Assembly (NCBI GenBank): GCA_937968065.1
Contig: CALBUD010000065.1
Location: forward strand, 1 to 7,472
DNA from: Candidatus Iainarchaeum sp.
Lineage (GTDB): Archaea > Iainarchaeota > Iainarchaeia > Iainarchaeales > CSSED10-239
Direction: 5' to 3'
DNA: 7,472 bases
Position numbers and translations under genes: made by a program. Shown here piece by piece: positions 1 through 7,472 of the stretch (within the stretch, counting starts at the first letter, position 1; each line of letters starts with the position of its first letter). A model generated the notes under the pieces. The model saw only the letters and a program-made list of their open reading frames with translations, ran no database searches and was not told where the DNA came from.

Positions 1-2
1 TG

Positions 3-251
3 TTTTGGTTTATATCACATCCATTATTAATGCCATACTTATATGGTTTTATAATTCACGATTACGAATATAGTAATAAATGTGAATATAAGATAACAAG
101 ACTACAAGCTGATGAATTCTTCTTATATAATAATATACATAAATATAAAGGTAGTAAGTTAGTTTCTTTAGTTATGTATTTATGAGTGAGAATTGCAGGG
201 TATAATCATTTCAAAGCTGATTTGCCATTTGATAAGAAAACAATAAAATAA
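3..251 (+). CDS. Hypothetical protein: either the 3' end of a gene truncated by the window edge, or a complete 73-aa ORF from ATG 30
   Basis: Frame 3 has no TAA/TAG from the first base to TAA 249-251. That is 83 codons with one in-frame TGA at 183-185, which is unlikely by chance in DNA this AT-rich. I recognise no motif. Frame 2 is also open over 2..73 with a hydrophobic tail (VLVYITSIINAILIWFYNSRLRI), so the real end of the upstream gene is ambiguous. Confidence 0.4.
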
Positions 252-297
252 TATAAAAGAAAGGAAACCTATAATATTAAATAAATAATAACAGACA

Positions 298-825
298 ATG
301 GTTGCAGAAAGTAAAATAGTGTGGACTACATTTGTAATAGCTTGATTAACAATACCTATCTATTGAATAGAAGTGTTAATATTGGCATTATTCCTATATC
401 TAATAGTTCAGCTGATAGACATAATATCTTGATATATAGCTGCTAGAAAAAGACAAGCTATTGCAAGTGGTATAATTAGAGAATGACTTGTAAGTAAATT
501 TACACTTCTAGTATGAATAATGTTAGCAATATCTATAACAATATTCTTAACAACAGCTTTACAAGGACTTAATTTAACAATCTTTTGATTTCCTATTTGT
601 TACATAATAGCTATATTCCCTTTAGCTACAACTACACTTTTTATATATATGGAAATTCTATCTATATTAGAAAATTTAAGTTACATACTAAAAGGAACTA
701 GACAATGAAAATTGTTTTGAGTTATTAGCTTCTTATGAAACAAACTATTTAATGTATCAATAGATAAGTTAAGTGAAACAGCTGAAAAGAAAATAGATGC
801 TAAGTTTAAAAATAATTTTAAATAA
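298..825 (+). CDS. Phage holin, phage_holin_4 (toxin secretion/phage lysis holin)-like, 175 aa
   Basis: ATG 298 is the first start after an in-frame TAA at 289-291, and the stop is TAA 823-825. There are nine in-frame TGA codons (343, 364, 430, 484, 514, 586, 706, 718, 736). The table-25 translation has several hydrophobic helices. It also has LIDIISGYIAA, ASGIIREGLVSKFTLLV and FIYMEILSILENLSYILKG. These resemble the family-4 holin consensus as I recall it: D-Y-I-T-G, S-S-K-x-G-x-K-G-x-x-K-K and E-x-x-S-I-L-E-N. A charged C-terminal tail follows, and a peptidase gene starts directly after it. Confidence 0.8.
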
Positions 826-826
826 T

Positions 827-1585
827 ATGAAAATATATATAAAGAAAATAATTGAAGCTCTCTATTGATTATATAAGTTTTATATAACTAATGATGAGGC
901 TTTTGATGAAATAGTGAAAGACCCTAGGGATTATGAAAGTTTAGCTTGATGAGAAACAAAAGGTCTTCCGCAAAGGTTTGAATATAAACCTTATCTAGTG
1001 ACAGACCAAAGAAAGGATTGATATAGAATGAGTTGTACATCTCAGTGAACAGCAGGGGCTATTAACACTTCAACTAAATATAAAAAAGGGAAAACTTTCT
1101 ATTTACCAGAACCTTTATGGGATGATATGGTGGACAATAAAGTGGGGGACAGAAAGAGAGGTGCCTATTTAAAAGATGCTGTAGGAACAGCTTATAAGAA
1201 AGGTTGGTTTAAAGCCTATTATAGAGCCACAAGCAATGATGCTAAGAAAGAGGCTTTATATAGAGGTGATTTGATAGTTACAGGGTCAACAAAGATTGAT
1301 TGGAAAGAACTTATTAAAACAGACAATATAGTTAGAGCAGCCTGACAAGGCTATTGACACGCCTTCTATATAGTGGGGTGGAATGAGATTTGATGGATAT
1401 GTCAAAACTCTTATTGACCTGATTTTGTATTGAACCAATTTGTAATACCATATTCTCTTGCTGACGAAGTGTTATTCAATTCAACATATGCTTTAACAGT
1501 TAATGACCCAGATTGGACTAAAATAAGCAAAGGGGAATTGTTTGAAAAATATAAATTAACTAGAATGAAAAATGCCAACAAATAA
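827..1585 (+). CDS. Papain-like (peptidase C1 family) cysteine peptidase, candidate endolysin, 252 aa
   Basis: ATG 827 lies 1 nt after the holin stop. An alternative ATG at 797 would overlap the holin. The stop is TAA 1583-1585 and there are nine in-frame TGA codons. Track ORF 1127..1345 is an internal fragment of this frame. The motifs are VTDQ(x7)SC with Cys at 1034-1036, GYGHAFYIVGW with His at 1358-1360, and WICQNSYG with Asn at 1406-1408. The His-to-Asn spacing is 16 residues, as in papain H159-N175. The block resembles cathepsin-type GGHAxxxxGWG...W..x.NSWG. The endolysin role is inferred from position only. Confidence 0.72.
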
Positions 1586-1871
1586 AAAATGATATTGGTC
1601 TAAAAATTGATGAGCCAATTATAAAAAATACCAATGAACAGATAAGGCTAAAAAAGATAGAGCTGCTAGAAATAAAGCTAGAAGAGAGGCTGAAAGAAAA
1701 GGTAAAGTGAGGAAATGAGATTGAAAGCATATAGACCATATTAAACCATTAAGCAAAGGTGGCTCTAGGTCTACAAAAAATACAAGAGTTGTTAGTGCTA
1801 AAGCTAACCAAAGAGCCTGAGCTAAAATAGCTAATAAAAGAAAAGGCTCTTGATACAAATTAAAAAAATAA
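1572..1871 (+). CDS. Small, very basic HNH-like (beta-beta-alpha-metal finger) nuclease-family protein, 99 aa
   Basis: ATG 1572 is the first start after TAA 1557-1559 and overlaps the peptidase 3' end by 14 nt. The stop is TAA 1869-1871 and there are eight in-frame TGA codons. The translation includes VRKGDGKHIDHIKPLSKGGSRSTKNTRVVSAKANQRAGAK. This matches the HNH core pattern D-H-I-x-P-L-S-K-G-G-(x4-5)-N-(x8-9)-N, but it lacks the usual Cys pairs. The N-terminus is Lys/Arg-rich. It occupies the same DNA as the antisense track ORF 1619..1858. Confidence 0.55.
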
Positions 1872-1883
1872 TCTTAATTAAAA

Positions 1884-4241
1884 ATGAGATGAGAACAAAC
1901 AACTAGAATTGAAGACTTAACAGGTTGAATAAATGTTAGAGACTATCCATCTGAGATAGAGAATAAACAATTTCAAGACCTAGTTAATTTCAATTTTGAA
2001 TGAAATAAATTAGTTAGCAGTAAGGGAAAAGAAGTTAAACAAGTAACTTCTTCCCCTTTGCAGGCTATTAAAATAGATAGTAATGATTTATGGTATATAG
2101 AAGACTCAAAACTTTACAAAAGTTGAACAGAAGTTCCAGAGCTTCAATGAAGCACTATAACATTTTCTACATTATCAACTTATTGGCAACAATATGAACC
2201 TAATCTATACACTTATATAGTAATAGATTGAGTTGAATATGAAGTTAATTGAGCCACACCAGAAGAAAGGAAAAACTCTTTAGTTAATCAGCTTGATACA
2301 AATGTGTATGATGTAAGAGAAAAAAGTGTACAGGAAATATTTATAGGTAGATTTGATTTTATTGCTCCTGTAATATCTCTACCTTCTTATAGCTCATATA
2401 TATTATGAGTTGATGCTCCGTGAGCAACCTGATTAGACCGTACTTGGACTGAAATATTTTCAGACAATAAACTTAATTGAACTTGTATAGTTATTAATTG
2501 AACTCCTGTTGCTTGATTAATACAGCCTAATACAAGCTGAACATTAAGAAGTAATGCTAATACATTATTTTCTACTATGTCTTTCCCTTCAGAAAATAAC
2601 GCTGTGCAATATTATTTTGATAATGATGTTGATTTAAATATATGAGACTCTAGCACATCTCAATCAATAGGTTGGCTTTTAAATAAGGTGGATACATTAA
2701 ATTATATATCAAATTATTCAGAGGAATATAGAGGTATATATTGCTTAAATACAACAACTTCATTTTCTGTTACATTTGATTGATATACAATAAGCTGAAC
2801 AATACCTGCCTGAAATATAGCTTCAATAAGAACTCAAATTGATACTCAACTTCCTTCTTGATACTATACAGAATACACTGCGGTTAGTAGCTGATTTTTA
2901 TATCCAGACTCAGCTCCTTGAGCATTCTTTATTTATTCATCTAATTGAGTTGCAACAATTTCTTCTTTTCAATTAAATTGACTTAATAGTGCTTCTTATA
3001 TTGTATATAATAAATGATATATCACAACACCAAAAACTTTAACACAAGGAGAGCAAATAGTTATATCTTGACAAGCAACTTGAATAAGTTTTGATTGAAT
3101 AGTTGATGTTACAATAGGTAATCAAATGCAACTTTTAGTTAGTAGAGATGATTGAGGTGCGGCTGTCTTTGTAGACAATATATACAATCCAATATGAGAA
3201 GAGGCTGTATGACTTCCAACTGTATGAACTATATATAACTGAAAGATTGTTTTATGAGGATACCCTGATAATGATAATATAGTATTTTCTAAAACTTCAA
3301 CACCAGACAATCCTTTGCTTATCACTTCATTTGATTGATATGATGCTTGAGGACAATCTGTATCAGGTTGAGATAAAGGTAGGGTTGTAGGTATGACAAC
3401 TTCTGAGAATTGATTATATGTCTTTAAAGACAATTCAATATGGTACACAAATTCAGAAAAAGATAATCCTGACTCAAACTCTTTCAACTTTATATTTAGA
3501 AAGATAACTTCTAGTTGAGCTTATAGCCAATCTACTATTACAGATGTAGAACAAGATGTTTTCTATTTAGATTGGAATGAAAGAGCTGTAAGAAGACTTA
3601 GTTATGAACAAAATTTAACAACTTTAAGAGATACTGCAATATCAGATGAGATAAGAGGATTATTAGAAGACTTACCACAAGACCAAAGTTTAGCAACAGC
3701 AAACTACACTTATCCAAATTATCGCCTATATCTATCAGACCACACTTGACCAACTATAACATATCCAAATGGGAAAACATATAATACAAACAATGTATGT
3801 TTAACATATAATGTATATAATAAAAGTTGGACAAAAGAAACTCTTTGAAATGTTATTGTAGCAGACAAAGGATATATAGGAACTAACGATAATAATATAA
3901 GTGAATTAGAAAAAGGTAATATTAATCTAAATGGATTAGCTCTTACAAAAAGATATACAGAAGGTGATGATTTCATAAGAAAGAAATATAATAGAGTGAA
4001 GGTTTTAGGTAAACTAAAGCCAGAATATTGAGAAAGCCTTTCTTTCACAACTGAAATATTAAATAATAACTGAGAAGTGGTAAAGAGAGTAACACAAACT
4101 GCAACTACAGAGGAAAGAATAGATGAGAGAATACATACCTATTTCCTATCTGAAAGTGTAGAGTTTAGGTTTAGTTTTTCTGGTAAAGGTAGAGTGGAAA
4201 TATATGACCTATTCTATTCTTATAAAGCTACTAAAATATAG
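1884..4241 (+). CDS. Large phage virion-type protein of unknown function, possibly a tail, neck or receptor-binding component, 785 aa
   Basis: I checked frame 3 codon by codon from ATG 1884 to TAG 4239-4241. ATG 1884 is the first start after TAA 1875-1877. The frame has no TAA/TAG and 42 in-frame TGA codons. The protein is rich in Ser, Thr, Asn and Tyr and looks beta-rich. An (S/T)-F-D-G-(Y/I) motif occurs three times. Segments such as ENGLYVFKDNSIWYT and DVFYLDWNERAVRRLSY resemble repeated beta-blade motifs seen in phage structural proteins. The functional call is weak. Track ORFs 3122..3487 and 3719..4048 are antisense shadows of this gene. Confidence 0.75.
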
Positions 4242-4245
4242 GGAA

Positions 4246-4287
4246 AATAAGCCCTGAGAGAGCTTTTAAGTTCTTTTAGGACTTATT
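4246..4287 (+). terminator. Long imperfect stem-loop in the only sizeable intergenic gap: possible terminator, RNA processing site or regulatory hairpin
   Basis: AATAAGCC (4246-4253) pairs with GGaCTTATT (4279-4287), leaving one bulge. The inner stem TGAGAGAGC (4255-4263) pairs with GTTCTTTTA (4270-4278) using several G-U wobbles. The loop is TTTTAA (4264-4269). It begins 5 nt after the stop of the 785-aa gene. No U-run follows it, so it is not a canonical intrinsic terminator. Confidence 0.3.
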
Positions 4288-4321
4288 ATACCTGTACAAT
4301 ATAAATAATAATAAAAACAAT

Positions 4322-5335
4322 ATGAATTTTATATATAATGAAACTCTTACTTGAGTTGTTGATTGAATTAATAAAACATTTACAACACAATATGTAATAG
4401 AGAAAATTGAAGAGGTTTATGTTGGTTGAGCTCCATATAGAGGAATTACATATACAGGACAAACTGTTGTTCTTAATGATGCTCCTCCTGCCTGAAGCTG
4501 ACAACCTACTATAGATTATTTTGAGTCTACAACACCTCCTCCTGTAACAGAAAGTGATGTTAGTCTAGGGCTTATAATAAATGATGTATATGATAAACTT
4601 AGTCAAGATAGAGTGAGCGGAGGGATACCAAATGATGTTTATAAAGAAAGTCAAATTAAGTTGGCAATAACATCAGGTTGGAGAAGAATTGAAAATAGTA
4701 GAGCATTAAAAGATGTAATAAGTTCTTATAGTTTCAGAAAAGCTAAAGAATTCACATTAAAACAAAAAGACTCATCTTCTATTGATATAGGAGAACAAAG
4801 CTACATACCATCTACAGGGAAACTTTCCCTTGACAATTGAGCCATTTTTGATTATAATGGATATAGCTGATGAATAATTAGCTCTATATGAGTGATTGGT
4901 GATACAGGAGCCACATTAAGTTTTTGATATAAACTTCCTAGCTCAGTGTTAAAAGTTAGTGAAGTGAGAGTTGGTTGAACTCTTATTGAGCCTGATGATA
5001 TAAGAGAATGGACTAATAGAAAGAACACTTACTGTGTTGCTGATTGATATTTGTTTCTACCTATTACTAATAAAGAAGATGTAGTGGTAGTTAAATATGT
5101 AAAAACTCACAACATTATAGAAGAAGACACTGACTTGTTTCCTTTAGAATGGGACTACTTTGAAATGCTAAGTTATTATGCTTTATATAAAATATGTGCA
5201 TTAGTTGAAGATGATAGAACCTCTCTATTCTACCAAGAATATGAAACTATCAAAAAGCAATATAAGGCTTATAAAAGTAGACAAGTTGATTGAATTAAGA
5301 ACACATTAAAAAGTGGTGTGTTAAAACAATATTAA
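4322..5335 (+). CDS. Two-domain hypothetical phage protein, probably virion-associated, 337 aa
   Basis: ATG 4322 is the first start after TAG 4277-4279, and the stop is TAA 5333-5335. There are 13 in-frame TGA codons. The gene joins track ORFs 4613..4840 and 5051..5293, which share its frame. The N-terminus NETLTGVVDGINKTFTT fits an L-T-G-x-x-D-G-x-N-x-x-F motif that I recall from the N-termini of phage structural proteins. A Pro-rich linker follows (APPAGSGQPTIDYFESTTPPPV). The C-terminus looks helical (EWDYFEMLSYYALYKICALVEDD...). Confidence 0.72.
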
Positions 5336-5354
5336 TATATAAATGTAAAAGAAA

Positions 5355-7391
5355 ATGGCGAAAGACAATAAAGCCCTTTTAAAAGAAGCTATAGATAAGG
5401 TGGGGGCAGATAAGGTTGAGAGTGCTATTAAAGAAGCTTGACCAGAAGCAATAAGAGCAGCATCAAGAGCTATACTTAGAGATGATAATCAATGATGAAC
5501 AGCTAATAAAAATACACAAATTGAGAATGTAGCTAAATGATATTCTAGTGATAACATTTGAATACCTTGAGTTAATGTTAATGTGGAAGGTTGAACTTCA
5601 AAAGAAACTTTTGATAAAACAGAAACTATAGACCAAATTGAAACACCTGAACAAGCTCAAGACTTAGTAGTTGATACAACTAAAGAAGATATGAAAACAA
5701 CTACAGCACAAATTGAAGAAACAGAAAAAATAGCTACACAAAGAACAGAAGAAGACAAAGTTATTAAAGATGCTGAAAAGAAAGCTATTGAAGACCAAGC
5801 TACTAAAATGCAAGAGCTTAGAGATGCTTATTCAAAAGAACTTGAGGATAGTGAGGCTAGAACTAGAACACTTATAGAAGATAGACTTGAAAGAGATACA
5901 GAGCTTTTAGAAGAACAAAAACAAGCTGAGCTTAATAAACTTGAAGCTGAAAAAGAACTACAAGCAGCAAAAGATAAACAAGCTATATTAGATGCTGAAA
6001 AACAAATAGAGGTTAGTAGGCAACAATCAGCTTGGGCTTATCAAAAACTTTGATTAGGTTTTTCTTCTTGAATAATCAACACTTCTCAACAAATAGCTAC
6101 AGAAGGTGCTGAAACAATAGCTGCATTGAAAGTGCAGGCTAATTATAATCAAGCTGATATAGCTTATAAAGTGGCACAAGTGGAGTTTGAATATACAAAT
6201 TCAATTAATCAAATGATTGATAACTACACTAATCAACAAATTGAACTTGAAGAAAGTGTGAGAGATAGAATATATACAGAACAAGAAAATCAATTAAAAG
6301 ATGAAGCTGAAAAAGATAAGGCAATAAGAGAAATAGAAAAAGAATATTTAAAAACAACTAGAGCAAGAGAAGATGAAATGAGAAGAGAAACTGAAAGGTT
6401 GAGAGATAAGGCTATAACACAATCTAAACAACTTCAAACTGAGCTTAAACAAAAAGAAACTGAAAATAAAACAGCTCTTAATGAACAAATGTTAAGCTGA
6501 GAATATTTTGCACTTTCAGTTGAAGAACAAAACAACCTTATATTACAAAGTGGTATGACTAGAGAGGAAGTTGATAGAAGAATAGGTGGGTCTATATGAA
6601 ACTATGCAAATCAATTAGCACAGAATATTATGTGAAATGATTTCTTCCTTTCTGCTACAGAAGATAGTAAAATTAAAAATAGAACTAAAAGCCTAATGGA
6701 GTTTAGTTGATATACATTAGAAGAGGCAACTAGAATTGCATTAGATGAAACATTACAAAAGAATGATAAATATAAAGCTATGAAGGCTGCTGAGGCTGCT
6801 TCTGCAAGTGGTTCAGGATGAGGGTCAGTAGCATCATCTAATTTAGCTTCTAAAATATTTGCAGCAAGTGAACAGCTTGGGAGAAAAATTAGTTATTGAG
6901 ATGCTGAAAAAATTGCAAACGACCCAGAAGCTGCTGCACAAATACTAGGTCAATGAGCTTTTGAAACTTGAAGTGTAGTTAATGACCCAGACTTATGAAC
7001 TTATAGCTGAACTACCATTTTTGGGAATAAATATAAAGATGATATAACTCCTGATAATACATATTGAATATTAAAAGAGGTTGACACATTAGATATTGAA
7101 ACTTGAGCAAAAAATAAATATAAAAATTTTGCACTAGATAAAATGTTGCTAGAATATGAAAACACTAAATCAAGTGGGGTTATAGAAGGTATAATGAAAT
7201 GATATAGTGCAGTAGATAAAGACAATAAAACTCTTATAGAAGAAAAACTAAAAAGTGAATTAAAAACTAAAGATGAACTTACTGACGAAGATGAAGGTAG
7301 TGTTTATATAGATGGTAGAAAGATTAGGATTTATAATCCTTGACCTAAAACAAATACAGAAATAGGTGAATTTGATAAACAAAAAAAATAA
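5355..7391 (+). CDS. Coiled-coil-rich phage protein (candidates: scaffold, internal/ejection or tape-measure-like protein), 678 aa
   Basis: I checked frame 3 codon by codon from ATG 5355 to TAA 7389-7391. ATG 5355 is the first start after TAA 5346-5348. There are 23 in-frame TGA codons and no TAA/TAG. Track ORFs 5691..6053 and 6126..6500 are two Glu/Lys/Gln-rich, glycine-free helical segments of this one frame. The C-terminal third is mixed and includes an ASGSGGGSVASS linker. I recognise no catalytic motif. Confidence 0.75.
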
Positions 7392-7411
7392 TAATTATTA
7401 ATAAATAAAAT

Positions 7412-7472
7412 ATGGCTTTAAAATGGATAGATGGTAAATGGGTTTGGGAGGAAGAAGAAGAAAACTATAAAA
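7412..7472 (+). CDS. 5' end of a further plus-strand gene, truncated by the window edge
   Basis: ATG 7412 lies 20 nt after the previous stop. The frame stays open to the window end and reads MALKWIDGKWVWEEEEENYK. It uses TGG three times and GGT once. Only 20 codons are visible. Confidence 0.4.
   Translation, partial: MALKWIDGKWVWEEEEENYK

What the first reader, a model, noticed from the sequence alone, without database searches (positions are those of the whole stretch)
1..7472. Probable phage or prophage of a code-25 lineage (Absconditabacteria/SR1 or Gracilibacteria), a sparsely described virus-host space
Table 25 is known only from the SR1/Absconditabacteria and Gracilibacteria lineages. 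These are largely uncultivated and have low-GC genomes, which fits this AT-rich window. The gene content is viral: a holin-peptidase lysis pair, an HNH-like gene and large proteins of no recognisable housekeeping function, all on one strand. The well-described phage recodings are TAG to Gln and TGA to Trp. A lysis and structural module written with TGA as Gly would therefore mark one of two things. It could be a virus adapted to a code-25 host, or a phage that imposes its own recoding on late genes. Every gene here carries TGA, including the lysis genes. None could be expressed correctly in a standard-code cell.
Basis: inference. Interest (0 to 1): 0.7.

Follow-up and report, generated by a model that had tools for sequence, protein, structure and literature searches.

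The report
Code-25 phage tail and lysis genes
This 7.5-kb contig is a piece of a short-tailed bacteriophage that reads the stop codon TGA as glycine, as its probable CPR-bacterial hosts do; such phages are already described, so it is a well-supported new example and not a new phenomenon.

Summary
With only TAA and TAG as stops, the window resolves into six complete and two truncated genes, all on the + strand. They contain 105 in-frame TGA codons.

Four independent tests show that TGA encodes glycine (table 25), not tryptophan (table 4):
- amino-acid composition;
- TGA↔GGN exchange among relatives (213 aligned codon pairs, against 2 with TGG);
- higher Pfam/PHROG scores with Gly;
- Gly, never Trp, opposite TGA in standard-code homologs.

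The genes are phage late genes: a DUF1353 fragment, a holin, a papain-like cysteine peptidase (probable endolysin), an HNH protein, a tail nozzle, an SU10-type adaptor, and a coiled-coil virion protein (probably ejected).

Relatives on 30–53-kb contigs add a major capsid protein, a tail fibre and ribonucleotide reductase. All of them are TGA-recoded. Their replication genes are recoded about as densely as their structural genes, and no tRNA(UCA) was found. This favours a phage adapted to a code-25 host over a phage that imposes its own code.

One relative is binned in a Patescibacteria MAG. The host is otherwise inferred, not shown.

Code-25 phages were reported in 2021–2023, so this is a new member of a known kind. 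Public databases mistranslate this contig under table 4.

The parts
3..251 (+). g0: 3' part of a gene cut by the contig end (82 codons plus TAA). DUF1353-like / tail-assembly-chaperone-like protein. 1 in-frame TGA.
   Evidence: Pfam DUF1353 at 20.5 bits, below the 22.5 cutoff. phrog_1158 'tail assembly chaperone' at E 3.4e-6. Frame and stop.
298..825 (+). g1: holin, 175 aa, 9 in-frame TGA.
   Evidence: Pfam Phage_holin_4_1 scores 38.7 bits (cutoff 22.2) with TGA=Gly and 25.9 with TGA=Trp. phrog_199 holin scores 30.7 vs 19.9. The relative L002 has a Phage_holin_4_1 gene upstream of its g2 homolog.
827..1585 (+). g2: papain-like (C1-type) cysteine peptidase, 252 aa, 9 in-frame TGA. Probable endolysin.
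   Evidence: The family alignment A3 has invariant Q61, C70, H178 and N194-S-Y. The profile hits PDB 3ois_A 'Cysteine protease' at E 2.4e-11, then cathepsin K, ficin and procerain. Pfam Peptidase_C1 is found in 3 of 6 family members. The L010 homolog hits phrog_16701 'peptidase' at 7e-14. g2 itself passes no Pfam threshold. The endolysin role is inferred from its position next to the holin.
1572..1871 (+). g3: small HNH-motif protein, 99 aa, 8 in-frame TGA. It overlaps the end of g2 by 14 nt.
   Evidence: phrog_4590 at 69.7 bits, E 4.5e-19. Pfam HNH at 20.0 bits (cutoff 21.4) and HNH_5 at 20.5 (cutoff 27.5). Homologs sit between lysin and adaptor in L004 and L009.
1884..4241 (+). g4: tail nozzle protein, 785 aa, 42 in-frame TGA. 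The N-terminus and the C-terminal half (~400-785) are conserved; the middle is variable.
   Evidence: The AF2 model (mean pLDDT 55, built from the W-mistranslated database sequences) gives Foldseek PDB hits that are almost all podovirus nozzles: SU10 7z4b_DW at E 3e-12, 7z4f_G, 7z47_G, Pa223, Kp7/Kp9, T7 gp12 (7boy_s, 7ey7_s), P22 gp10. There are 105 homologs among 1.84 billion representatives. No sequence-level PDB, Pfam or PHROG hit.
4253..4280 (+). Terminator-like hairpin in the longest intergenic gap (4242-4321), between nozzle and adaptor.
   Evidence: Consensus scan: 12-pair stem, 4 GC pairs, T-rich tail. Four such sites were found against 2.2 ± 1.8 expected, so on its own this is not significant.
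4322..5335 (+). g5: head-to-tail adaptor of the SU10 type, 337 aa, 13 in-frame TGA.
   Evidence: Pfam SU10_adaptor PF24175 scores 27.5 bits (cutoff 27.0) with Gly and 21.0 with Trp. 3 of 7 family members hit it. The top PDB profile hit is 'Tail tubular protein A' 9k09_d at E 0.1, which is not significant. It is adjacent to the nozzle in every relative.
5355..7391 (+). g6: coiled-coil virion protein, 678 aa, 23 in-frame TGA. Probably an internal or ejection protein.
   Evidence: It always follows the nozzle in relatives and shares a conserved core (residues ~87-484, with the motif QQSAWAYxKLGLGFSSGIINxSQQIA). Relatives carry lytic C-terminal domains: VanY/M15 in one member and phrog_2649 endolysin in L004. 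g6 itself has no recognised domain. The function is inferred.
7412..7472 (+). g7: first 20 codons of the next gene, cut by the contig end.
   Evidence: ATG at 7412, open to the end. In relatives this position holds a protein of 1,460-1,550 aa with no family match. The N-termini are not alignable, so equivalence rests on position only.

Best explanation
The window is a complete 7.5-kb metagenomic contig. It is a fragment of the late-gene region of a podovirus-like phage whose relatives lie on contigs of up to 53 kb. The genome is written in genetic code 25: TGA is glycine, and TAA and TAG are the only stops.

Gene order: a DUF1353 fragment; a lysis cassette of a holin and a papain-fold cysteine peptidase; a small HNH protein; then a tail module of nozzle, SU10-type adaptor and a coiled-coil virion protein that is probably ejected.

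Shown here:
- the gene structure;
- TGA=Gly;
- membership of a family of more than 100 mostly recoded phage sequences;
- the holin, peptidase, adaptor and nozzle assignments;
- genome-wide recoding in relatives.

Inferred:
- The phage carries no decoding machinery of its own. It depends from the start of infection on a host that has tRNA-Gly(UCA) and does not terminate at UGA. That means a code-25 member of the Patescibacteria (Absconditabacteria or Gracilibacteria).
- The peptidase acts as the endolysin released by the holin.
- g6 is delivered through the nozzle at infection.
For: Code.
- Read as Trp, the proteins would be 5.3% W and 3.2% G. Read as Gly, they are 0.95% W and 7.5% G.
- In codon alignments with recoded relatives, TGA pairs with GGN 213 times and with TGG twice. 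Its other partners are D, S, N, E, T, R and A.
- Pfam/PHROG scores are higher with Gly: holin 38.7 vs 25.9, adaptor 27.5 vs 21.0. In relatives, RNR large subunit scores 465.9 vs 421.8, RNR small subunit 192.2 vs 173.4, and the exonuclease 57.5 vs 47.9.
- Seven apparently standard-code nozzle homologs carry G 76 times and W never opposite TGA. Opposite TGG they carry W 30, Y 17 and F 6 times.

Phage identity.
- Holin, HNH and adaptor family hits; papain-like peptidase; nozzle fold.
- Relatives have Pfam Phage_capsid_4 above threshold, a tail fibre and endolysins. One relative is an IMG/VR viral genome.
- Synteny is conserved across the 14 related loci fetched (13 distinct).

Host adaptation.
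- All 12 loci tested (L001-L012) are TGA-sense. L013 and L014 also failed to translate under the standard code, and L013's genes carry in-frame TGA.
- Replication genes have 3.4-3.7% TGA codons against 4.0-5.6% in structural genes.
- No tRNA(UCA) in the window or in about 170 kb of relatives.
- One relative is binned in a Patescibacteria MAG.

Literature.
- Among bacteria, UGA→Gly is known only in Absconditabacteria and Gracilibacteria (PMC8629427).
- Code-25 phages have about 90% of genes recoded and are interpreted as host-adapted (bioRxiv 10.1101/2021.08.26.457843; PMC10746230).
Against: - There is no direct host link: no CRISPR spacer match, no co-abundance data. The MAG-binned relative is only a 3.1-kb contig and could be mis-binned.
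- Less than half of any relative's genome was seen, so a phage-borne tRNA(UCA) elsewhere cannot be excluded. Terminase and portal were not identified.
- The nozzle call rests on a low-confidence model (pLDDT 55, TM about 0.3) built from mistranslated sequences.
- The adaptor hit is only 0.5 bit above the Pfam cutoff.
- g2 alone passes no Pfam threshold, and its endolysin role is positional.
- g6's function is inferred from synteny and from domains present only in relatives.
- The seven 'standard-code' homologs were judged so from normal Trp/Gly content only; their DNA was not examined.
Confidence: 0.85

Rival explanations
1. The phage infects a standard-code host and imposes TGA→Gly itself, with a phage-encoded suppressor tRNA-Gly(UCA). 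This would mirror what TAG→Gln and TGA→Trp phages do to delay late and lysis gene expression.
For: The window holds only late and lysis genes, which is where such phages concentrate their recoded codons. Less than half of each relative's genome was inspected, so a tRNA could lie elsewhere. The capsid genes of relatives nearly lack TGA, so recoding is not uniform.
Against: - In relatives, RNR, exonuclease and the neighbouring minus-strand genes carry TGA at 3.4-3.7% of codons, close to the 4.0-5.6% of structural genes. Early expression in a standard-code cell would therefore fail.
- No tRNA(UCA) in about 170 kb; the only tRNA found is a tRNA-Met.
- Self-recoding phages described so far use Trp or Gln, and Borges et al. 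separate code-25 phages as host-matched.
Confidence: 0.04
2. The contig is an integrated prophage, or a phage-derived region, of a code-25 bacterial chromosome and not a free lytic phage genome.
For: A close relative (L006, about 65% identity in the nozzle) is part of a Patescibacteria MAG. Liu et al. report code-25 prophages in both lineages. The 7.5-kb window cannot exclude integration.
Against: No integrase, att-like repeat or cellular gene occurs in the window. The fetched parts (15-23 kb each) of relatives' 30-53-kb contigs carry only phage structural, lysis and nucleotide-metabolism genes. RNR and a large ejection-protein set are typical of lytic podoviruses, which is a general-knowledge argument. 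The MAG contig is only 3.1 kb and contains nothing but the adaptor and nozzle genes.
Confidence: 0.1
3. TGA encodes tryptophan (table 4) and the element belongs to a Mollicute or another code-4 organism. This is how the public protein databases translate it.
For: The NCBI/ENA-derived proteins for this contig (P0001, P0004) and nearly all relatives are stored with W at the TGA positions. The low GC would also fit Mollicutes.
Against: It would require 5.3% Trp and 3.2% Gly. TGA almost never exchanges with TGG (2 pairs against 213 with GGN). Every HMM comparison but one (phrog_1158 on g0, which has a single TGA) scores lower with W. Standard-code homologs never have W opposite TGA.
Confidence: 0.01

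Closest known systems
Code-25 phages and prophages of Absconditabacteria/Gracilibacteria (Borges et al., bioRxiv 10.1101/2021.08.26.457843; Liu et al. 2023, mBio, PMC10746230)
   Same: TGA is read as Gly. In-frame TGA occurs in essentially every gene. Coding density collapses under code 11. GC is low.
   Different: No CRISPR or other host link was obtained here. I could not determine whether this family is among the genomes in those studies, because their tables are not held. g4 and g5 have no tblastn match, and the window has no blastn match, in 50,697 GenBank phage records.
SU10 / T7-type podovirus tail: adaptor (T7 gp11, 'tail tubular protein A') plus nozzle (T7 gp12), followed by internal ejection proteins (gp14-16)
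   Same: An adaptor and a nozzle of about 800-900 aa are adjacent. They are followed by a large coiled-coil protein which, in relatives, carries a peptidoglycan-hydrolase domain, and then by a protein of about 1,500 aa. Fold hits go to the SU10, T7, Kp7 and P22 nozzles, and Pfam hits SU10_adaptor.
   Different: There is no detectable sequence similarity to those phages; the link is fold-level or at the Pfam threshold. In the window the nozzle precedes the adaptor, the reverse of all relatives. No portal or terminase has been identified yet. The comparison with T7 gene order is from general knowledge.
TGA→Trp and TAG→Gln recoded phages (crAss-like, Lak and others) of standard-code hosts
   Same: A stop codon is used as a sense codon in lysis and structural genes.
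   Different: Those phages recode only 26-71% of genes, often carry suppressor tRNAs, and are thought to switch code during infection. In this family replication genes are recoded too, and no suppressor tRNA was seen.
Papain-family (C1) cysteine peptidases, e.g. PDB 3ois, cathepsin K, ficin
   Same: g2's family has the Gln-Cys-His-Asn catalytic residues in the same order. A profile match to 3ois reaches E 2.4e-11.
   Different: g2 sits beside a holin in a phage lysis cassette. It has no pro-peptide-like match, and g2 itself passes no Pfam threshold. Some relatives (L004) have a different, amidase/CHAP-type lysin at that position.

Membership tests
Genetic code 25 (TGA = Gly) | TGA is a sense codon; TAA and TAG remain stops | tested here: met
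   ORFs of 100 aa or more rise from 777 to 3,066 aa in total with TGA as sense. There are 0 in-frame TAA/TAG in 2,428 codons, and every gene ends in TAA or TAG.
Genetic code 25 (TGA = Gly) | TGA encodes glycine, not tryptophan | tested here: met
   TGA pairs with GGN 213 times and with TGG twice. Standard-code homologs have G 76 times and W never opposite TGA. HMM scores are higher with Gly. Composition fits Gly.
Genetic code 25 (TGA = Gly) | Decoding by tRNA-Gly(UCA) and loss of release factor 2 in the translating cell | not testable with these tools
   The host genome is unknown. No tRNA(UCA) was found on the phage sequences fetched.
Code-25 phages of Absconditabacteria/Gracilibacteria | In-frame TGA in most genes, early as well as late | tested here: met
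   In the window, 7 of 7 genes of at least 80 codons carry TGA. In relatives, replication genes have 3.4-3.7% TGA codons against 4.0-5.6% in structural genes.
Code-25 phages of Absconditabacteria/Gracilibacteria | Viral hallmark genes | tested here: met
   The window has a holin, adaptor and nozzle. Relatives have Phage_capsid_4 above threshold, a tail fibre and endolysins. Terminase and portal were not identified.
Code-25 phages of Absconditabacteria/Gracilibacteria | Host link to a code-25 bacterium (CRISPR spacer, prophage junction or co-abundance) | tested here: inconclusive
   The only link is a 3.1-kb relative binned in the MAG 'Patescibacteria group bacterium AGTU_283_bin_10_strict'. 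No spacer database was available.
Absconditabacteria-type extended code (CGA/CGG = Trp, predicted by Shulgina & Eddy) | CGA and CGG align with Trp | tested here: inconclusive
   The window has 0 CGA and 0 CGG in 2,408 codons. In relatives L005 and L010, CGA aligns with R (60) and K (22) and with W only twice, so it reads as Arg there.
Podovirus adaptor-nozzle tail (SU10/T7 type) | Adaptor protein | tested here: met
   g5 hits Pfam SU10_adaptor at 27.5 bits against a cutoff of 27.0, which is marginal. 3 of 7 family members hit it.
Podovirus adaptor-nozzle tail (SU10/T7 type) | Nozzle protein with the β-propeller-containing nozzle fold | tested here: met
   The top 20 Foldseek PDB hits are nozzle proteins (SU10 at E 3e-12, T7 gp12, P22 gp10 and others) at probability 1.00. 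The model has a mean pLDDT of 55 and TM scores of about 0.3, so the match is qualitative.
Podovirus adaptor-nozzle tail (SU10/T7 type) | Internal or ejection proteins encoded after the nozzle | tested here: inconclusive
   The position and coiled-coil nature fit, and relatives carry VanY or endolysin-like domains. g6 has no family or PDB match.
Phage_holin_4_1 (PF05105) | Passes Pfam's gathering score | tested here: met
   g1 scores 38.7 bits against a cutoff of 22.2.
Papain-like cysteine peptidase (C1) | Catalytic Gln, Cys, His and Asn, and profile similarity to C1 peptidases | tested here: met
   Q61, C70, H178 and N194 are invariant. The PDB profile hit 3ois_A reaches E 2.4e-11. Pfam Peptidase_C1 is found in 3 of 6 members, but not in g2 itself.
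HNH endonuclease (PF01844) | Passes Pfam's gathering score | tested here: not met
   g3 scores 20.0 bits against a cutoff of 21.4. An HNH-like 'HIDHIKP...N' motif is present and phrog_4590 matches at 69.7 bits. It is HNH-like, but membership is not established.

The most novel reading that the evidence does not exclude
This contig may represent a distinct, widespread and so far unclassified lineage of podoviruses with genomes perhaps around 50 kb that is specific to code-25 Patescibacteria. There are more than 100 nozzle homologs, and about 90% of the long ones are recoded. The capsid gene and its neighbour almost exclude TGA, while other genes use it for 35-90% of their glycines. That pattern would mean decoding of the reassigned codon is slow or costly enough to be selected against in the most highly expressed genes. 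It would offer a natural handle on how efficiently UGA is read as Gly in uncultivated CPR bacteria.
Probability: 0.3. Interest if true: 0.5.

Novelty: new member of a known kind. Interest (0 to 1): 0.3.

Why it matters
It is a cleanly verified example of a phage written entirely in code 25, from a divergent podovirus-like family with no relatives among deposited phage genomes.

There are two practical points.

1. Public protein collections translate this contig, and roughly 90% of its family, under table 4. About 5% of residues are therefore wrong (Trp in place of Gly). This visibly damages structure prediction, and annotation may suffer as well.

2. The family offers material for studying phage-host biology in the uncultivated, episymbiotic or predatory Absconditabacteria and Gracilibacteria. 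Examples are a papain-fold lysis enzyme, swappable lytic domains on a putative ejection protein, and TGA avoidance in capsid genes.

None of this changes the current picture. Code-25 phages and their interpretation as host-adapted were published in 2021-2023.

Tried and rejected
Searches that found nothing:
- Exact-DNA search of IMG/VR for the window.
- blastn of the window, and tblastn of g4 and g5, against 50,697 GenBank phage records.
- Rfam.
- tRNA scan of the window.
- Tandem, direct and inverted repeats: only low-complexity coiled-coil coding sequence, with no att-like or terminal repeats.
- Single-sequence PDB searches for g2, g4 and g5, and profile PDB searches for g4 and g6.

- Exact protein look-up of the source contig.
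That search and the g4 structure prediction therefore used database ids, which carry the W-mistranslation, and this lowers confidence in the g4 model.
- The supplementary tables of Liu et al., which could have shown whether the IMG/VR relative is CRISPR-linked, are not held. The IMG id is not mentioned in any searchable paper.

Inconclusive tests:
- Promoter scan: 32 sites against 41.6 ± 7.1 expected, so no signal. Terminator scan: 4 against 2.2 ± 1.8.
- CGA/CGG→Trp as a discriminator between Absconditabacteria and Gracilibacteria. It says nothing about the window, and CGA reads as Arg in two relatives.

Rejected readings:
- Table 4.
- TAG or TAA reassignment.
- g4 as a portal, which I considered briefly because of its size and its position next to the adaptor. 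The fold hits are nozzles.

Full report
WHAT IS IN THE SEQUENCE

The window is 7,472 bp with 30% GC. Under the standard code it has only short ORFs scattered over both strands.

Treating TGA as sense raises the total length of ORFs of 100 aa or more from 777 to 3,066 aa. The + strand then tiles into six complete and two truncated genes: g0 3-248, g1 298-822, g2 827-1582, g3 1572-1868, g4 1884-4238, g5 4322-5332, g6 5355-7388, and g7 from 7412 to the end. Treating TAG or TAA as sense does nothing comparable.

In these frames there are no TAA or TAG codons among 2,428 codons, against 4-74 per gene in the other two frames. There are 105 TGA. All seven genes that end within the window stop at TAA or TAG. 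Every gene except the 20-codon stub g7 contains TGA.

The window is also a whole public contig. The database proteins matching g2 and g4 come from a contig of exactly 7,472 bp held by NCBI and ENA. No flanks exist to inspect.

WHICH AMINO ACID TGA ENCODES

Four independent tests agree on glycine.

1. Composition. Read as Trp, the proteins would be 5.3% W and 3.2% G. Read as Gly, they are 0.95% W and 7.5% G.

2. Codon exchange among recoded relatives recovered from public assemblies. In well-aligned columns of g2-g6, TGA pairs with GGN 213 times and with TGG twice. TGG pairs with TGG 44 times. TGA's other partners are D, S, N, E, T, R and A, the usual glycine substitution spectrum.

3. Curated HMMs score higher with Gly than with Trp.
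- Holin: 38.7 vs 25.9 bits.
- phrog_199: 30.7 vs 19.9.
- SU10_adaptor: 27.5 vs 21.0.
- HNH_5: 20.5 vs 16.6.
- In relatives: ribonucleotide reductase large subunit 465.9 vs 421.8, small subunit 192.2 vs 173.4, and RNase_T exonuclease 57.5 vs 47.9.
- The one exception is phrog_1158 on g0 (27.8 vs 28.7), a fragment with a single TGA.

4. Standard-code homologs. Seven homologs of g4 have normal Trp and Gly content and so probably come from standard-code genomes. Opposite TGA they carry G 76 times and W never. Opposite TGG they carry W 30, Y 17 and F 6 times.

The public translation of this contig uses W at every TGA. It is wrong.

WHAT THE GENES ARE

- g1 is a holin: Pfam Phage_holin_4_1 at 38.7 bits against a cutoff of 22.2.

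- g2 belongs to a family with invariant Gln61, Cys70, His178 and Asn194-Ser-Tyr. Its profile matches a bacterial cysteine protease, PDB 3ois, at E 2.4e-11, followed by cathepsin K, ficin and procerain. Three of six members hit Pfam Peptidase_C1, and the L010 homolog hits phrog_16701 'peptidase' at 7e-14. g2 is therefore a papain-fold cysteine peptidase. Its role as the endolysin is inferred from its position after the holin.

- g3 is a small HNH-motif protein. phrog_4590 matches at 69.7 bits, and Pfam HNH falls just below its cutoff.

- g5 passes Pfam's threshold for the SU10 adaptor by half a bit (27.5 against 27.0). Three of seven family members hit it.

- g4 has no sequence-level match in Pfam, PHROGs or the PDB. 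The mean pLDDT was only 55, and the worst region was the most TGA-dense one. Even so, the top 20 Foldseek hits in the PDB are podovirus tail nozzle proteins: SU10 at E 3e-12, Pa223, Kp7/Kp9, T7 gp12, P22 gp10, Sf6, VP1 and Pam1. Combined with the adjacent adaptor, I call g4 the nozzle.

- g6 is a coiled-coil protein with a conserved core. It follows the nozzle in every relative. One relative's copy ends in a VanY/M15 domain and another's in an endolysin-like domain. By analogy with T7-type internal virion proteins, which is general knowledge, g6 is probably an ejected virion protein. This is inference.

- g0 is a DUF1353 / tail-chaperone-like fragment with weak hits.

- g7 is the first 20 codons of whatever follows. 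In relatives that position holds a protein of 1,460-1,550 aa with no family match.

CONTEXT FROM RELATIVES

The g4 family has 105 members among 1.84 billion representative proteins.

I fetched 14 related loci, 13 of them distinct, totalling about 170 kb. L001-L012 have almost no coding capacity under the standard code and full capacity with TGA as sense. L013 and L014 also failed to translate under the standard code, and L013's genes carry in-frame TGA.

The conserved order is lysin, (HNH), adaptor, nozzle, g6-like protein and the protein of about 1,500 aa. This is followed on the opposite strand by ribonucleotide reductase, an exonuclease and small genes. Upstream lie a tail fibre and a capsid gene that passes Pfam Phage_capsid_4 in L010 and L013. 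L007/L010 is an IMG/VR viral genome. Contigs reach 47-53 kb. The family is clearly viral, and the window is a fragment of such a genome.

HOST-ADAPTED OR SELF-RECODING

In relatives, the minus-strand replication and nucleotide-metabolism genes carry TGA at 3.4-3.7% of codons, compared with 4.0-5.6% in structural genes. A standard-code cell could not express them at the start of infection.

No tRNA(UCA) occurs in the window or in any fetched relative. The only tRNA is a tRNA-Met in L013.

Borges et al. use the same pattern to set code-25 phages (about 90% of genes recoded) apart from TGA→Trp and TAG→Gln phages of standard-code hosts (26-71%).

Among bacteria, UGA→Gly is known only in Absconditabacteria and Gracilibacteria (PMC8629427). 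One relative with about 65% nozzle identity lies in a MAG labelled 'Patescibacteria group bacterium'. I therefore favour a phage adapted to a code-25 Patescibacteria host, at about 0.85.

The host link remains indirect. I could not separate the two lineages. The window has no CGA or CGG codons, and in two relatives CGA reads as Arg, not the Trp predicted for Absconditabacteria. Liu et al. find that most Absconditabacteria phages are code 25 (44 of 50), while few predicted Gracilibacteria phages are (4 of 38). That is a prior, not evidence about this contig.

A prophage state cannot be excluded for a 7.5-kb fragment. However, no integrase, att-like repeat or cellular gene was seen anywhere.

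COMPARISON WITH WHAT IS KNOWN, AND NOVELTY

Code-25 phages were noted by Borges et al. in 2021. Liu et al. 2023 catalogued 50 Absconditabacteria phages, 57 Gracilibacteria phages and 27 prophages. The phenomenon and its interpretation are therefore known.

This family is divergent. It has no DNA or protein match among 50,697 deposited phage records, and most of its proteins lack family assignments. It still fits an ordinary podovirus plan.

I rate it a new member of a known kind, with interest 0.3.

Side observations worth following up:
- the systematic table-4 mistranslation in public databases;
- the near-absence of TGA from the capsid genes of relatives;
- the papain-fold lysin;
- the nozzle/adaptor order swap, with mosaic similarity, in the window.

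Noticed in passing
Trp stands at every TGA, giving 2.9-10.6% W where about 1% is expected. Roughly 5% of residues are wrong. The AlphaFold model of g4 was worst exactly where TGA is densest (residues 438-557).
   Followed up: yes
L004 2547-3683, L010 2858-3904, L013 2152-3213 (capsid genes) and the adjacent ~132-aa genes: In three relatives the major capsid gene uses TGA for only 0-6% of its Gly codons, and the neighbouring ~132-aa gene for 0-15%. The nozzle genes use it for 34-79%, and most other genes for 35-90%. This suggests selection against the reassigned codon in the most highly expressed genes. The window has no capsid gene; its own genes use TGA for 43-75% of Gly codons.
   Followed up: partly
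window 1884-5335 (g4-g5) compared with L003-L006, L009, L010, L013, L014: In the window the nozzle precedes the adaptor; in every relative the adaptor comes first. Similarity is also mosaic. The window's nozzle C-terminal half is closest to L006 and L009 (about 65%) and far from L010 (34-38%). Its adaptor is closest to L010 (42%) and far from L006 and L009 (25-30%). This points to recombination within the tail module.
   Followed up: partly
window, 25 nt upstream of each start (298, 827, 1572, 1884, 4322, 5355, 7412): None of the seven start codons is preceded by a Shine-Dalgarno-like purine-rich GGAGG motif. All the leaders are A/T-rich, with A-runs directly before the ATG.
   Followed up: no
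window, all genes; L005 and L010: The window has no CGA or CGG codons and only one CGT and one CGC among 2,408 codons; Arg is encoded by AGA (79) and AGG (10). In the relatives L005 and L010, CGA aligns mainly with Arg or Lys. That gives no sign of the CGA/CGG→Trp reassignment predicted for Absconditabacteria.
   Followed up: yes
g6 family: L003 7358-9805, L004 12761-15178, L005 10907-13273; window 5355-7391: The protein after the nozzle keeps a conserved coiled-coil core but has different C-terminal modules in different phages. One member has a VanY/M15 peptidase, L004 has an endolysin-like domain (phrog_2649), and L005 appears by eye to have a CHAP-like Cys/His segment. The window's C-terminal ~190 residues match nothing.
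   Followed up: partly
lysin position: window 827-1585; L004 7608-8465: The lysin slot is filled by non-homologous enzymes within the family. The window, L001-L003, L005 and L010 have a papain-fold cysteine peptidase. L004 has an amidase/CHAP-type endolysin (phrog_7470, 7887).
   Followed up: partly
L013 22169-22245 (-): One relative encodes a tRNA-Met (CAT). This is the only tRNA found in about 170 kb of the family.
   Followed up: no
window 4242-4321: The longest intergenic gap (80 nt), between nozzle and adaptor, holds a terminator-like hairpin at 4253-4280. It lies at the junction where gene order differs from relatives. The terminator scan as a whole is not above chance.
   Followed up: no
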